From the sequence record MT764208.1: a stretch of DNA of 64,000 nt. One strand, 5' to 3'. Shown one piece after another: positions 27,446 through 40,142 of this stretch. The stretch's first letter is position 1, and each line of letters begins with the position of its first letter. Origin of the DNA: Escherichia phage JEP8. The translations under genes were made by a program, and so were the position numbers. A model generated the notes under the pieces. It saw only the letters and a program-made list of their open reading frames with translations, was not told the DNA's origin and ran no database searches.

Positions 27446-28042
27446 TTAGTTGGTAGTACCATCAATAAAATGTTTACGGCACACAGAAACATATTTATCC
27501 TCTGCACCAACTTCGATTTGAGCACCATCGCGAATAACATTACCCTCTTTATCTACACGAAGGACCATTGTTGCTTTCTTGCCACAATGACAAATACCCT
27601 TCATTTCGACCAGTTTATCAGCAAATGCCATTAATGCCGCAGATCCTTCAAATAGATTGCCCTGAAAGTCAGTGCGAAGGCCATAGCACAGTACAGGGAT
27701 ATTTGCATCATCAACAAGCGCACACAAGCCTAAAACATGCTCTTTAGTCATAAATTGGGCTTCATCTACAAAAACTGCATCTGGACGCCATCGATCCGGT
27801 CTACGCTTACCTAACGATTCACGATAAACCAAGTCGAAAAGATCATCCGATTTAGTGAAGGTGATCGCTGGAGCACTTAGGCCAATTCGGGAAACAACTT
27901 CACTTTCTGAATCTCGATTATCAATCGCTGGCTTAAGAATTAATACTCGCATATCACGTTCGGTATAGTTATAAGCACTTTGTAACAGGGAAGTTGATTT
28001 GCCAGCGTTCATAGATGCATAGTAGAAATATAATTGCGCCAT
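27446..28042 (-). CDS. tk: Thymidine kinase
   Basis: 198 aa; Walker A MNAGKST, FVDEAQF, C-terminal Zn cysteines (CHCGKKA...VCRKHF); typical TK1-family layout. Confidence 0.9.
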   Translation of the reverse strand: MAQLYFYYASMNAGKSTSLLQSAYNYTERDMRVLILKPAIDNRDSESEVVSRIGLSAPAITFTKSDDLFDLVYRESLGKRRPDRWRPDAVFVDEAQFMTKEHVLGLCALVDDANIPVLCYGLRTDFQGNLFEGSAALMAFADKLVEMKGICHCGKKATMVLRVDKEGNVIRDGAQIEVGAEDKYVSVCRKHFIDGTTN

Positions 28043-28335
28043 TAATTAATCTCCAAAAATCCAGCAAGACCTAAACCGATATAAACCCAGATACAAAGGA
28101 AAAAGAAGCAAACACCCATAGCAAAGATAAATCCGCGTAGTGTCTTTGGATAACCTACCCAATATTCCCGACCATCTTCTAACCGGATCAGCTTATTTCC
28201 TTGAGAGTCCATATCAATTACAACATGTTTATTTCTGGATTGTAACAGATACTGCTTGACAATCTCAATACCCGCCATAATAACAATAACGAAAATAAAA
28301 GTCCACACAACAAGATTAATGATAGTCTCAAGCAT
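28042..28335 (-). CDS. Membrane protein (two TM segments)
   Basis: 97 aa; hydrophobic N- and C-terminal helices. Confidence 0.5.
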   Translation of the reverse strand: MLETIINLVVWTFIFVIVIMAGIEIVKQYLLQSRNKHVVIDMDSQGNKLIRLEDGREYWVGYPKTLRGFIFAMGVCFFFLCIWVYIGLGLAGFLEIN

Positions 28336-28570
28336 TTTCTATCACCTCCACCCAATCAGGTGTTTCCTGAAAGACTCCTTCGCCTTCATGATGGTCGCAA
28401 CCTTTATTGCTGCAATACATCCACCAATCCCACATTCCCCACGGTAAACGATGCATATCGTCGTTACAGCAAGTGAAGATGATAGGCCAACCACATCTAC
28501 CACAACGGCAGTTTTCCTTCATGTGAGCGGTATTAGGCTTCTTCATAGATGACTCCAATATAATCGACAT
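28328..28570 (-). CDS. Cys-rich small protein
   Basis: 80 aa; CRCGRCG...CCNDD...CSNKGCDHHEG. Confidence 0.4.
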   Translation of the reverse strand: MSIILESSMKKPNTAHMKENCRCGRCGWPIIFTCCNDDMHRLPWGMWDWWMYCSNKGCDHHEGEGVFQETPDWVEVIENA

Positions 28571-28737
28571 TTACATTTAGGGCAATGCGGTTCTTTAATA
28601 TAATACCCGTCTGTCTTCGGAACACTAACAGGAGCGGTTTTTATATTGTATTCAGTGAAACAACGAAAACAAGTTACGTTTTCTACAGACTGACGTTTCA
28701 CCCAATCACCGGAATATAGATCATTTTTATTTGTCAT
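28543..28737 (-). CDS. Zinc-ribbon small protein
   Basis: Start moved to MTNKNDLYSG after SD GGTGG; CFRCF...CPKCKC. Confidence 0.4.
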   Translation of the reverse strand: MTNKNDLYSGDWVKRQSVENVTCFRCFTEYNIKTAPVSVPKTDGYYIKEPHCPKCKCRLYWSHL

Positions 28738-29182
28738 ATTCAACCACCACAATGTTAATGTCTGGAGTAGCAATATTAATGATCTCTTCTACACATTCCC
28801 ACTCAAGGCCACCGATACCGCAACCGATTTTAGGAATATAGAAAGGCTGTATAGCACCCTCAAAAACATCATTGAGAGACTCAAATCCTTTCAGGATAGC
28901 ACCATATTCAGCATTTGGACCCGGTCGGAATTGGGTATAGAGATTCACCCCGCACCAGTTATAACCATTAACTTGATGCGTCCAGATACTAAACCCACCC
29001 AACTTTTCTACCTTACCGCGAGAAGTTTGCTTGTCAATCTCTAACGCTTGCGGGAACTCTTTCGCGATCTTCGCAGCAATACCAGCGCCCATAGTATGAA
29101 AACAATTACAACCATGAATTAAATGACCGTTTCCTTGTTTAAACAGGGCGATGAGATCGCCCTTTACAGTATCAATAATCAT
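28727..29182 (-). CDS. Macro-domain protein (ADP-ribose binding/processing)
   Basis: 151 aa; HGCNCFHTMGAGIAAKIAKEF and IGCGIGGLEW are typical macro-domain signatures. Confidence 0.65.
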   Translation of the reverse strand: MIIDTVKGDLIALFKQGNGHLIHGCNCFHTMGAGIAAKIAKEFPQALEIDKQTSRGKVEKLGGFSIWTHQVNGYNWCGVNLYTQFRPGPNAEYGAILKGFESLNDVFEGAIQPFYIPKIGCGIGGLEWECVEEIINIATPDINIVVVEYDK

Positions 29183-29197
29183 AATATAAACCTCTCA

Positions 29198-29557
29198 TTA
29201 GTCACGGGAAGACAACCCAGCCATAAAACGGCTTAACAGTGTGTCGCGATAAGCAAAGCATAATTGCTTATCAGGGGCAGTATCACACAGGTTGCGTTTT
29301 GTTTTAGCAAAGCTGGCAATACTCAGATCCCATGCTCGATTTTTTCGTTTTTCGTCTCGACCTTGTTTATATGCTTCATCAAGTTCGAGCGCGATAAAAT
29401 CACTACACATGTTATCATCATCACAGAAAGTTTTAATGATCTTTTTGTTGATCTCAAATCCTTTGTATTCGAACTTTGGATAAGGGCGCTCATTACTAGC
29501 AAGCGCACCAGCCGAGAACATCATAACAATCATAGCAATTATTGTCAACTTTTTCAT
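29198..29557 (-). CDS. Secreted Cys-containing protein (signal peptide)
   Basis: 119 aa; N-terminal MKKLTIIAMIVMMFSAGALA; four cysteines in the mature part. Confidence 0.5.
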   Translation of the reverse strand: MKKLTIIAMIVMMFSAGALASNERPYPKFEYKGFEINKKIIKTFCDDDNMCSDFIALELDEAYKQGRDEKRKNRAWDLSIASFAKTKRNLCDTAPDKQLCFAYRDTLLSRFMAGLSSRD

Positions 29558-29564
29558 ATATTCC

Positions 29565-30155
29565 TCAATAGCGTTTAGTCTTAAGAATGCCTTTACTCTT
29601 TAGATGGTTAGCCTTTTTTAGTACGTCATCAGCATAACCTAATCCGGCTTTATAGTTCCATCCAGCATTGTAAGAAGCTAGCGCGAGTCTGATATTACCG
29701 TTTCGAATATCCAGCCAGTATGCTAACTCATCCATCGCGTAGAATGCAGAAACCTCGCGATTCATGATAAAGTTGATAGTCTGGCGATCACTCATTTTAA
29801 CACCGCGCTTTGCATTTTTCGCTTTCACCGTTTTAAGGTAATTTTGAAATAATCCATAAGCATGATGATTTTTCTTTGGTGCTAAGTTTGCACCCGCGCT
29901 TGATTCTTGCCATGCGATACCCGCCAGGATGTGACCTAAACCCTTTCCGTTATAGCGAATATTCGGATGGTACTTTTTCAACTTACCGCTTTTCTCGAAT
30001 TGCTCGCCGTATTGATAGGCGAAATGTAAATTATCTAGTTGGTGTGCTGTAAAGTTGTCTATCGGCGCTTTTTTGATCGGTGCGCTAGTCGATGCGTGTG
30101 TAGCACCAACGGCTAGTGACAGACTCAATACTATCGCTTTTAGAACTTTTAACAT
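29565..30155 (-). CDS. Secreted lytic transglycosylase-like protein (SLT domain)
   Basis: 196 aa; signal peptide MLKVLKAIVLSLSLAVGATHA; SLT motifs AWQESS, YGLFQ, ASYNAG. Confidence 0.6.
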   Translation of the reverse strand: MLKVLKAIVLSLSLAVGATHASTSAPIKKAPIDNFTAHQLDNLHFAYQYGEQFEKSGKLKKYHPNIRYNGKGLGHILAGIAWQESSAGANLAPKKNHHAYGLFQNYLKTVKAKNAKRGVKMSDRQTINFIMNREVSAFYAMDELAYWLDIRNGNIRLALASYNAGWNYKAGLGYADDVLKKANHLKSKGILKTKRY

Positions 30156-30240
30156 TAATTTCTCCTGTTTGGCTTAACTTTCTGATTTCATAATATAGCC
30201 CTATCACCAGAAAGTCAAGCATTAACTCAACCAATTTCCA

Positions 30241-38307: not shown

Positions 38308-38546
38308 AGATCACAGATCCATCTAAAAGCACCACATACAGCGATCAGGAGTGTAGGAACACTTGAGAAGAAAACCAACGTACAAAAATCATCTAGTGTA
38401 ATACCGGAATAACTACCGACTGCAATCACACCGATGATCAGACACAGAAAGAAAACAAATGCAATCAGAAACAAAGTATTGCTAAACAGTTTAGTGATCA
38501 TTAGACACCCCACGACGATCAATTTCAAAAACTTTTTTATCATCAA
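38304..38546 (-). CDS. Small membrane protein
   Basis: 80 aa, three hydrophobic segments. Confidence 0.45.
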   Translation of the reverse strand: MMIKKFLKLIVVGCLMITKLFSNTLFLIAFVFFLCLIIGVIAVGSYSGITLDDFCTLVFFSSVPTLLIAVCGAFRWICDL

Positions 38547-38694
38547 CGAAGCATGTCACAACTGCCTCGTTGACTTCCGCAAATTGTTGTGTTACCCACT
38601 TAAGGTCAGATCGAAACAATGTTCTATTAATAACAAATGTTTTACCGCTCTTATCCTTACCCATAAATTTTGCTTTAACCATATCCAATTCCAT
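38491..38694 (-). CDS. Hypothetical protein
   Basis: 67 aa; SD AAGGTGA. Confidence 0.45.
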   Translation of the reverse strand: MELDMVKAKFMGKDKSGKTFVINRTLFRSDLKWVTQQFAEVNEAVVTCFVDDKKVFEIDRRGVSNDH

Positions 38695-39414: not shown

Positions 39415-39879
39415 TTACAGTTTGGTCGTCCACTCCAGGTCTAGATCTTCGACATACTCATGAGATCGGACAATCTCTAAATCGAACTCTAGGTCAGTGC
39501 CAAATTTACGCGCACCAACATCATAAGAAAGCGTGATATGCGGTACATATTCAGGATAATCCCACGTCGCACCTAAAGCAGTTCCGATATCGTGTCTGAA
39601 TTGCATGTAGTCGCTTTCAAATGCCAGCACAAGTGCATTAGTACCGGATTGAGTTTCAAACACTTTAAGATGACACAGAGAGCCTAAGAACTTTTCCCCT
39701 TCTTCTGGGATAAACGGAACATAGACACGAGAATATAAGATAGTGCTATGCAGTTTATCACGAGGAACGGCATTAGGCAGATCGTAGAACTCCTGCAATT
39801 TTTCAATGCGGTCTAGTGTATCCTCAGTGAATTTAACAGCCGCATATGTACCTTTAACGGATTCTCGAAACGGGGTCAT
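39415..39879 (-). CDS. 57B: gp57B-like protein
   Basis: 154 aa from ATG after SD GGAGG; size and position relative to 57A/gene 1 match T4 57B. Confidence 0.6.
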   Translation of the reverse strand: MTPFRESVKGTYAAVKFTEDTLDRIEKLQEFYDLPNAVPRDKLHSTILYSRVYVPFIPEEGEKFLGSLCHLKVFETQSGTNALVLAFESDYMQFRHDIGTALGATWDYPEYVPHITLSYDVGARKFGTDLEFDLEIVRSHEYVEDLDLEWTTKL

Positions 39880-39881
39880 AA

Positions 39882-40142
39882 TCAAGCCTCCGTGATCAGT
39901 TCTACTTCCTCTTTATCGTCTTCCGCTGCTTCGTCTTTAGGGAGAAGTGCTTTCACTTCTTCGACAATAGCATCAAGGGAAACAGTGCCGTTTTCGTCTG
40001 GCTGAATACCCAGAATGCGTACCAGTTCCATCAATACACGCTCACGATCTTTCAGTTGGCCTTCTAAGAATGCGGCCTTTTCTTGAGTGTCAAACAGACG
40101 TACTTTCAGGACATTAATCATTTGTTCATGCTGATTGGACAT
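39882..40142 (-). CDS. 57A: Tail-fibre assembly chaperone gp57A
   Basis: 86 aa from ATG after SD AGGAGATG; small acidic coiled-coil protein; position before gene 1 as in T4. Confidence 0.7.
   Translation of the reverse strand: MSNQHEQMINVLKVRLFDTQEKAAFLEGQLKDRERVLMELVRILGIQPDENGTVSLDAIVEEVKALLPKDEAAEDDKEEVELITEA

What the first reader, a model, noticed from the sequence alone, without database searches (positions are those of the whole stretch)
28727..29182. Macro-domain protein in the early region
HGCNCFHTMGAGIAAKIAKEF and IGCGIGGLEW point to an ADP-ribose-binding/hydrolysing macro fold. In a phage this could reverse host ADP-ribosylation-based defence or stress signalling, or process NAD-derived signals. 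It overlaps a downstream zinc-ribbon ORF (28543-28737), which suggests coupled expression.
Basis: partly seen in the sequence, partly recalled or inferred. Interest (0 to 1): 0.55.

Follow-up and report, generated by a model that had tools for sequence, protein, structure and literature searches.

The report
Phage macrodomain gene tk.4 (AdfM orthologue)

Summary
The ORF at 28727-29182 (minus strand, 151 aa) is real, and both quoted motifs are present. The window is an RB49-like Krischvirus (98.5% DNA identity). The ORF is gene tk.4, annotated since 2003 as "contains A1pp phosphatase motif".

A 2025 preprint named T4 Tk.4 AdfM: deleting it sensitises T4 to DarTG2. The likeliest function here is therefore removal of ADP-ribose that host DarT2 puts on thymidine in phage single-stranded DNA.

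One nuance is new. The catalytic lysine of DarG, TARG1 and PhiKZ AdfM is a near-invariant glutamine here (Gln84, 252/255 homologues), as in SCO6735, where that Gln is essential. The longer SCO6735 loop is absent.

The 11-nt overlap with the zinc-ribbon ORF is real. That ORF occurs in 233 phage records against 2786 for the macrodomain, so a general functional link is unsupported.

Verdict: already known, low interest.

The parts
28727..29182 (-). tk.4 / adfM orthologue: 151-aa stand-alone macrodomain of the ALC1/TARG1-like class
29075..29116 (-). Codons for H23-G-C-N26-C-F-H-T-M-G-A-G-I-A36, the first ADP-ribose-binding loop. It includes Asn26 (codon 29105-29107), which is equivalent to DarG N22 and SCO6735 N27.
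   Evidence: N26 is invariant in 254/255 homologues. Alignment. N27S nearly kills SCO6735 (PMC9411070), and an Asn mutant reduces PhiKZ AdfM activity (PMC13309987).
28931..28945 (-). Codons for N80-L-Y-T-Q84. Gln84 (codon 28931-28933) occupies the position of the catalytic Lys of DarG (K80), TARG1 (K84) and PhiKZ AdfM (K78), and of Gln85 in SCO6735.
   Evidence: Three independent alignments agree. Q is present in 252/255 homologues and in T4 Tk.4. SCO6735 Q85A is inactive (PMC9411070).
28799..28834 (-). Codons for P117-K-I-G-C-G-I-G-G-L-E-W128, the phosphate-binding GxG loop of the macro fold
   Evidence: P117, G120 and G122 are invariant; G125 and W128 are present in at least 90%. The loop aligns to PRIGCGL(A/D) of SCO6735, BT1257 and TARG1.
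29191..29196 (-). Shine-Dalgarno-like GAGAGG, 8 nt upstream of the tk.4 ATG and 1 nt after the vs stop codon
   Evidence: Read directly from the sequence.
28543..28737 (-). 64-aa zinc-ribbon ORF (Phage_zn_bind_2, RB49p090 homologue) whose start overlaps the tk.4 3' end by 11 nt. It is co-transcribed; a functional link is not established.
   Evidence: Pfam PF23903 at 1.1e-23. Overlap read. Distribution. A macro-then-Zn module is shared with Vequintavirus.
30190..30218 (-). Sigma-70-like promoter match (TTGACT-17-TATTAT, 10/12) in the regB/vs.1 intergenic gap. It is a candidate promoter for the vs.1-vs-tk.4-...-tk block.
   Evidence: Consensus scan and sequence. This is a consensus match only and is not evidence of function.

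Best explanation
The gene is the Krischvirus (RB49-type) orthologue of T4 tk.4, recently named adfM (anti-DarT factor, macrodomain). It encodes a stand-alone 151-aa macrodomain of the ALC1/TARG1/DarG-like class.

Proposed mechanism. The gene is expressed from the prereplicative minus-strand block. The protein binds the ADP-ribose that the host toxin DarT2 (of the DarTG2 system) attaches to N3 of thymidine in single-stranded phage DNA. It hydrolyses the ribose-base bond, releasing free ADP-ribose and restoring replicable DNA. It thus acts as an orphan 'antitoxin half' carried by the phage.

The active site is of the SCO6735 type, not the DarG type. Asn26 and Gln84, together with the G120-x-G122 phosphate loop, would position the distal ribose for water-mediated cleavage. 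There is no catalytic lysine.

Shown here: the ORF, the macro fold, the class assignment, orthology and synteny with T4 tk.4, and conservation of Asn26, Gln84 and GxG.

Taken from the literature: the T4 tk.4 knockout is sensitive to DarTG2. SCO6735, which has the same Asn/Gln pair, removes DarT-made thymidine-ADPr, and its Q85A mutant is inactive.

Inferred: this protein has the same substrate and chemistry, and it protects this phage.
For: Orthology. The window is 98.5% identical to RB49, and the ORF is the annotated tk.4. It is 44% identical, E 4e-45, end to end with T4 Tk.4. Flanking gene order is shared: tk ... tk.4, vs, vs.1, regB.

Active site. N26, Q84, G120 and G122 are (near-)invariant across 255 homologues. 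They align with SCO6735 N27, Q85 and its GxG loop.

Function, from the literature. T4 tk.4 is the only DarTG2-specific hit in a transposon screen, and a clean deletion is DarTG2-sensitive (10.1101/2025.11.20.689424). T-even phages resist DarTG2 independently of AdfA and AdfN (PMC11257639). SCO6735 removes DarT thymidine-ADPr faster than DarG or TARG1, with Q85A dead and N27S nearly dead (PMC9411070). The PhiKZ macrodomain AdfM de-ADP-ribosylates DarT2-modified DNA in vitro (PMC13309987).

Context. The same block of the window carries other counter-defence genes, Acb1 and Dmd.
Against: No experiment exists for this phage or any Krischvirus. Identity to the tested T4 protein is only 44%.

The T4 evidence is genetic and comes from one preprint. 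Hydrolysis of thymidine-ADPr by a Tk.4-type protein has not been shown.

The protein lacks the catalytic Lys of DarG, TARG1 and PhiKZ AdfM. It also lacks the 4-6-residue longer 'mobile loop', with its DNA-contacting lysine, that the SCO6735 paper links to high DNA activity. Transfer of mechanism from either model is therefore imperfect.

Within the class the protein is roughly equidistant from BT1257/SCO6735, DarG, TARG1 and the phosphatase Poa1p. The fold alone does not fix the substrate.

The family is very broad: 2786 phage records, plus chromosomal orphans such as the Pelagimonas gene with no DarT nearby. This hints at uses beyond DarTG2.
Confidence: 0.65

Rival explanations
1. Non-catalytic neutralisation. 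The macrodomain protects by binding, either to DarT2 itself or to ADP-ribosylated DNA, rather than by hydrolysis.
For: Catalytically dead SCO6735 Q85A, DarG K80A and TARG1 K84A all inhibit DarT in vitro, and SCO6735 does so most strongly (PMC9411070). The classical catalytic lysine is absent here. No biochemical data exist for Tk.4-type proteins.
Against: DarG's dedicated DarT-binding C-terminal domain is missing; only profile positions 2-141 of 338 are matched. Near-invariance of the pocket residues N26, Q84 and GxG across 255 diverse homologues fits a conserved catalytic or ligand pocket better than a toxin-specific interface. SCO6735, with the same residues, is a fast hydrolase.
Confidence: 0.08
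2. Small-molecule ADP-ribose derivative hydrolase. This is the historical annotation, ADP-ribose-1''-phosphate phosphatase (Poa1p-like), or an O-acetyl-ADP-ribose deacetylase. It would clear by-products of RNA repair or sirtuin reactions, or NAD-derived immune signals.
Against: The only phenotype known for an orthologue is DarTG2 sensitivity. The H at that position is also present in SCO6735, BT1257, TARG1 and ALC1, so it is not diagnostic of phosphatase activity. No Tpt1/KptA-type gene was noticed next to it.
Confidence: 0.1
3. Eraser of protein or RNA ADP-ribosylation. It would reverse marks written by the phage's own Alt/Mod-type transferases, or by other host ART defences. Uracil-linked RNA ADP-ribosylation is one candidate substrate.
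For: TARG1 and SCO6735 also hydrolyse Glu/Asp-linked protein ADPr (PMC9411070) and uracil-ADPr in RNA (PMC13036486). RB49 has a putative alt gene (PMC1524935). The family is far more widespread than a single defence system would seem to require.
Against: No phenotype or substrate of this kind is known for Tk.4. In the T4 screen, tk.4 was dispensable without DarTG2. T4 Alt and Mod enzymes modify arginine (established knowledge of the family, not tested here), a linkage that TARG1-class enzymes are not reported to cleave.
Confidence: 0.12

Closest known systems
T4 Tk.4 = AdfM (anti-DarT factor, macrodomain); bioRxiv 10.1101/2025.11.20.689424
   Same: Full-length homologue (44% identity, E 4e-45). 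Nearly the same size (151 vs 155 aa). Same position between the tk cluster and vs. Same HGCNCFHTMG, NLYTQ and IGxGIG motifs, including Gln at the 'lysine' position.
   Different: Only 44% identical. The downstream neighbours differ: zinc-ribbon ORFs here, DUF7202 and DUF7438 genes in T4. The host phage has a different genus. The anti-DarTG2 phenotype is shown only for T4.
Streptomyces coelicolor SCO6735 / Bacteroides BT1257 (PDB 5E3B, 2FG1), the Gln-type ALC1-like macrodomains
   Different: Only 23% identity. The 4-6-residue longer mobile loop that defines the SCO6735 subclass is absent. SCO6735 and BT1257 are cellular; this protein is viral.
DarG antitoxin macrodomain (M. tuberculosis 5M3I, T. 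aquaticus 5M3E) and PhiKZ gp104 AdfM (PMC13309987)
   Different: The catalytic Lys (DarG K80, PhiKZ K78) is Gln here. There is no C-terminal DarT-binding domain and no adjacent darT. Identity is 19-24%. The name 'AdfM' therefore covers two different active-site types.
Human TARG1/OARD1 (PDB 4J5R/4J5S)
   Same: Best Foldseek hit (E 5e-11, TM 0.76-0.82, about 28-30% identity). Shares the MGAGIA and PRIGCG motifs and has similar length.
   Different: The TARG1 catalytic dyad Lys84/Asp125 is replaced by Gln84/Gly124-Gly125. TARG1 has Ser where this protein has Asn26.

Membership tests
Macro domain superfamily (Pfam PF01661) | Profile match above the curated gathering score | tested here: met
   29.9 bits against a cutoff of 22, covering profile positions 1-118 of 118.
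Macro domain superfamily (Pfam PF01661) | Three-layer alpha/beta/alpha fold with a central mixed sheet | tested here: met
Macro domain superfamily (Pfam PF01661) | Conserved GxG phosphate-binding loop | tested here: met
   G120-C-G122 is invariant in 101/101 and 253/255 homologues.
Macro domain superfamily (Pfam PF01661) | Binds ADP-ribose | not testable with these tools
   Needs ITC, a crystal structure or another binding assay.
ALC1/TARG1/DarG-like macrodomain class | Closest structural neighbours are class members, clearly ahead of the MacroD, coronaviral and PARG types | tested here: met
AdfM, T4 Tk.4 type | Full-length sequence homology to T4 Tk.4 | tested here: met
   44% identity over 153 columns, E 4e-45.
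AdfM, T4 Tk.4 type | Conserved genomic position (downstream of vs, upstream of the tk cluster) | tested here: met
   Gene order compared.
AdfM, T4 Tk.4 type | Confers resistance to DarTG2 | not testable with these tools
   Shown only for T4. Needs a deletion or complementation plaque assay.
DarG antitoxin (NCBIfam NF048014 equivalog; PADLOC DarG) | Score at or above the equivalog cutoff | tested here: not met
   49.5 bits against a cutoff of 250.
DarG antitoxin (NCBIfam NF048014 equivalog; PADLOC DarG) | C-terminal DarT-binding domain | tested here: not met
   The protein is 151 aa. Only profile positions 2-141 of 338 and 3-141 of 329 are matched.
DarG antitoxin (NCBIfam NF048014 equivalog; PADLOC DarG) | Catalytic lysine (K80) | tested here: not met
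   Gln84 occupies that column.
DarG antitoxin (NCBIfam NF048014 equivalog; PADLOC DarG) | Encoded next to a darT toxin gene | tested here: not met
   The neighbours are vs and a zinc-ribbon ORF.
SCO6735/BT1257 subclass of ALC1-like macrodomains | Gln in place of the catalytic Lys, held by a conserved Asn | tested here: met
   Q84 and N26 align with Q85 and N27.
SCO6735/BT1257 subclass of ALC1-like macrodomains | Mobile loop about five residues longer than in DarG and TARG1 | tested here: not met
   There is a 6-residue gap relative to BT1257 in the profile alignment and in MAFFT. 53 of 101 homologues share the short form.
Poa1p-like ADP-ribose-1''-phosphate phosphatase | Conservation of residues probed in Poa1p (H23, S30) | tested here: inconclusive
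   Our H23 and T30 align with them. However, the His is shared with non-phosphatase class members, and the role of these residues could not be read because the paper is not in the library.

The most novel reading that the evidence does not exclude
Tk.4-type phage macrodomains may be a third active-site architecture within the ALC1-like class: the Asn/Gln pair of SCO6735 on the short-loop scaffold of DarG and TARG1. In that case the two proteins independently named 'AdfM' (T4 Tk.4 and PhiKZ gp104) would use different chemistry.

In Krischvirus and Vequintavirus this macrodomain travels with a Phage_zn_bind_2 zinc-ribbon gene as a two-gene module. The partner might target or extend the macrodomain, for example to other ADP-ribosylated substrates such as RNA, or to other NAD-linked defences. 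In jumbo phages the same zinc-ribbon gene sits between Acb1-like, Sir2 and NUDIX genes, which hints at such a link.
Probability: 0.15. Interest if true: 0.45.

Novelty: already known. Interest (0 to 1): 0.2.

Why it matters
The gene adds one more confirmed counter-defence gene to the prereplicative block of an RB49-like phage, alongside Acb1 and Dmd. It predicts that Krischviruses resist DarTG2. That prediction is useful when choosing therapeutic phages or interpreting host range.

The one point beyond the literature concerns the active site. The whole Tk.4-type family (252/255 sequences) has Gln where DarG, TARG1 and PhiKZ AdfM have the catalytic Lys, and it lacks the long loop of the other Gln-type enzymes. 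A biochemical study of T4 AdfM should therefore not assume DarG-like chemistry. This is an incremental refinement, not a discovery.

Tried and rejected
(1) DarG membership was rejected. Only the macro half matches, the score is far below the equivalog cutoff, there is no catalytic Lys, and there is no adjacent darT.

(2) Full membership of the SCO6735 subclass was rejected because the defining long loop is missing.

(3) An obligatory macrodomain/zinc-ribbon pair was rejected.
- The zinc-ribbon family occurs in 233 phage records against 2786 for the macrodomain.
- T4 has unrelated genes at that position.
- In Mydovirus KB57, Pantoea phage Phynn and the jumbo phages GAP32 and CBB, the zinc-ribbon gene has other neighbours, and the adjacent ORFs are not macrodomains.
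- Only Krischvirus and Vequintavirus share the macro-then-Zn arrangement.

(4) I looked for a DarT partner next to a cellular family member (Pelagimonas P0106). None was found; it is an orphan in a housekeeping context.

(5) Searches for tRNAs and Rfam families in the window found nothing.

(6) A literature search for biochemistry on Tk.4 found only three papers mentioning tk.4 with ADP-ribose, and none contains enzymology. The Poa1p structure paper was not in the library.

(7) One Python call failed on a file path and was repeated. One literature call failed on a too-short term.

Full report
**What is there**

The window carries an ATG-started ORF at 28727..29182 on the minus strand, encoding 151 aa. 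A GAGAGG ribosome-binding site lies 8 nt upstream, just after the stop codon of the preceding gene.

The 2.8 kb around the ORF is 98.5% identical to Escherichia phage RB49 and 97.8-98.5% identical to the other Krischvirus genomes listed among 58 matching records. The protein is 100% identical to that of phage Cognac. The A1pp/macro assignment of tk.4 orthologues was already published in 2006 (PMC1524935).

**Fold and class**

The protein passes the Pfam Macro gathering threshold (29.9 vs 22 bits, full-length profile) and matches PHROG 335 at 1.5e-62. An AlphaFold2 model built on a 101-sequence alignment is very confident (pLDDT 97.5, pTM 0.91).

- then a clear step down to 14.1 for coronaviral and MacroD-type domains.

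A profile of the family against PDB sequences ranks the same proteins within about four orders of magnitude of one another. The protein therefore belongs to the ALC1/TARG1/DarG-like class but sits in no characterised subfamily of it.

**Orthology with T4 Tk.4**

T4 Tk.4 (NC_000866, 60922..61389) aligns end to end at 44% identity, E 4e-45. It occupies the same slot: downstream of vs, vs.1 and regB, and upstream of the small tk.x genes and tk.

A November 2025 preprint reports that tk.4 is the single T4 gene whose transposon mutants are depleted on a DarTG2-expressing host. A clean deletion sensitises T4 to DarTG2. The authors named it adfM and proposed, without biochemistry, that it removes ADP-ribose from DNA (10.1101/2025.11.20.689424).

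This fits an earlier report that T-even phages resist DarTG2 by a factor other than AdfA or AdfN (PMC11257639). Independently, the chimallivirus PhiKZ macrodomain gp104, also named AdfM, was shown in vitro to remove ADP-ribose from DarT2-modified DNA (PMC13309987).

**Active site: the one nuance beyond the literature**

In three independent alignments, Gln84 occupies the column of the catalytic lysine of DarG (K80), TARG1 (K84) and PhiKZ AdfM (K78). The alignments are phmmer to 5M3I, the family profile to TARG1 and BT1257, and a MAFFT alignment of ten reference sequences. T4 Tk.4 has the same NLYTQ motif.

Across 255 family members, Gln is present in 252 and Asn26 in 254. Gln at this position is the hallmark of SCO6735, BT1257 and ALC1. 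SCO6735 removes DarT-made thymidine-ADPr from ssDNA faster than DarG or TARG1. Its Q85A mutant is dead and N27S nearly dead, and a water-mediated mechanism was proposed (PMC9411070).

The missing lysine is therefore not evidence of inactivity. The Tk.4 family has exactly the Asn/Gln pair that works in SCO6735.

However, the Tk.4-type proteins lack the 4-6-residue longer 'mobile loop' that defines the SCO6735 subclass and carries a DNA-contacting lysine. They combine the Gln chemistry with the short-loop scaffold of DarG and TARG1. It follows that T4/RB49 'AdfM' and PhiKZ 'AdfM' are not the same kind of active site, and they share only 18-19% identity.

**Not a DarG**

The only hits in the PADLOC and NCBIfam libraries are the DarG models, but they cover only the macro half (positions 2-141 of about 330). 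The score is 49.5 bits against an equivalog cutoff of 250. There is no C-terminal DarT-binding domain, no catalytic lysine and no darT neighbour. The protein works like the enzymatic half of an antitoxin but is not a member of that family.

**Rival functions**

The historical 'A1pp phosphatase' label cannot be excluded from sequence. Poa1p is among the best structural matches. The HxCNC motif is shared, with Poa1p H23 and S30 aligning to our H23 and T30. But the His is also present in SCO6735, BT1257, TARG1 and ALC1.

SCO6735 and TARG1 also act on Glu/Asp-linked protein ADPr and on uracil-ADPr in RNA, so wider substrate scope is possible. Catalytically dead SCO6735 still inhibits DarT by binding, so a partly non-catalytic contribution is possible too.

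The family is large:
- 2786 phage records across Straboviridae, Vequintavirinae, Felixounavirus, Pakpunavirus, Ackermannviridae and others.
- 5008 50%-identity cluster representatives.
- Chromosomal orphans without a DarT neighbour.
- Fusions to NUDIX and DUF4326 domains.

This matches a survey in which 41% of myoviruses carry a macrodomain (PMC9503650).

**The zinc-ribbon overlap**

The 64-aa ORF at 28543..28737 is a Pfam Phage_zn_bind_2 protein (1.1e-23). Its ATG lies 11 nt inside tk.4. Overlaps or tiny gaps link every gene from vs.1 to tk here, and they are also the rule in T4. The overlap therefore indicates compact co-transcription and possibly translational coupling.

Functional coupling is not supported in general:
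- The zinc-ribbon family occurs in 233 phage records against 2786 for the macrodomain.
- T4 has unrelated genes (DUF7202, DUF7438) at that position.
- In other lineages the zinc-ribbon gene has different neighbours.

One arrangement is shared. Vequintaviruses carry the closest non-Krischvirus macrodomain (68% identity), followed after one small ORF by a 78%-identical zinc-ribbon gene, in otherwise unrelated flanks. This suggests a two-gene module exchanged between these E. coli phage groups.

**Expression**

All genes in this part of the window run on the minus strand in the order of the T4 prereplicative region. A sigma-70-like site (10/12) lies in the regB/vs.1 intergenic gap, and a stronger one (11/12, with an extended -10 TG) lies inside the 5' end of vs. 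These are consensus matches only. 'Early region' is a reasonable inference by synteny and is not shown.

**Verdict**

The gene is an already annotated orthologue of a gene whose counter-defence role was reported in 2025.

The most likely function is removal of DarT2-made thymidine ADP-ribosylation from phage ssDNA, using an SCO6735-like Asn/Gln active site (confidence about 0.65). The remainder is split among small-molecule ADPr processing, protein or RNA de-ADP-ribosylation, and binding-only neutralisation.

Novelty: already known. Interest: low (0.2). The Gln-for-Lys, short-loop architecture and the macro-plus-zinc-ribbon module are minor leads.

Noticed in passing
window 28543-28737 (-) and locus L004 2501-3405 (Escherichia phage JLBYU08): The macrodomain gene and the Phage_zn_bind_2 zinc-ribbon gene occur together, in the same order, in Krischvirus and in Vequintavirus. 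The macrodomains are 68% identical and the zinc-ribbon proteins 78% identical, while the flanking genes are unrelated. This looks like a two-gene module exchanged between E. coli phage lineages.
   Followed up: partly
L006 2015-4409 (Cronobacter phage GAP32) and L007 (Pectobacterium phage CBB): In Mimasvirus jumbo phages the homologue of the zinc-ribbon ORF sits directly between an Acb1-like 2H phosphoesterase and a Sir2 gene. A Nudt16-like NUDIX/cREC_REC protein follows, and a nicotinamide phosphoribosyltransferase lies a few genes upstream. This is an NAD/nucleotide-signal processing neighbourhood.
   Followed up: partly
window 28328-28570 (-): A second small zinc-binding ORF (80 aa, Pfam Phage_zn_bind PF23895, 2e-33) overlaps the first zinc-ribbon ORF by 28 nt. 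A 97-aa ORF with no Pfam or NCBIfam match follows at 28042-28335 (PHROG 16027). These replace T4 tk.1, tk.2 and tk.3, which belong to other families.
   Followed up: partly
window 29520-29548 (-): This is the best sigma-70-like promoter match of the region: TTGACA-17-TATGAT, 11/12, with an extended -10 TG. It lies inside the first 40 nt of the vs coding sequence. If functional, it would give a transcript that skips the vs start and begins just upstream of tk.4.
   Followed up: no
window 39415-39885 (-) and 38491-38694 (-): The same minus-strand block carries an Acb1 anti-CBASS phosphodiesterase homologue (PF23474, 1.5e-51; annotated '57B RNA ligase' in RB49) and Dmd (PF17587, 7.6e-16). At least three known or likely counter-defence genes therefore lie within about 11 kb.
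   Followed up: partly
L005 2495-3280 (Escherichia phage HY02); proteins P0230, P0244: Some family members are longer. The Felixounavirus copy has a C-terminal extension of about 100 aa with no Pfam match. Metagenomic homologues are fused to a NUDIX domain (P0230) or preceded by DUF4326 (P0244).
   Followed up: no
window 29565-30155 (-): The vs.1 homologue (196 aa) has a weak but above-threshold SLT lytic transglycosylase match (PF01464, 25.6 bits vs 21.3) and a hydrophobic N-terminus. This agrees with the old vs.1 annotation.
   Followed up: no
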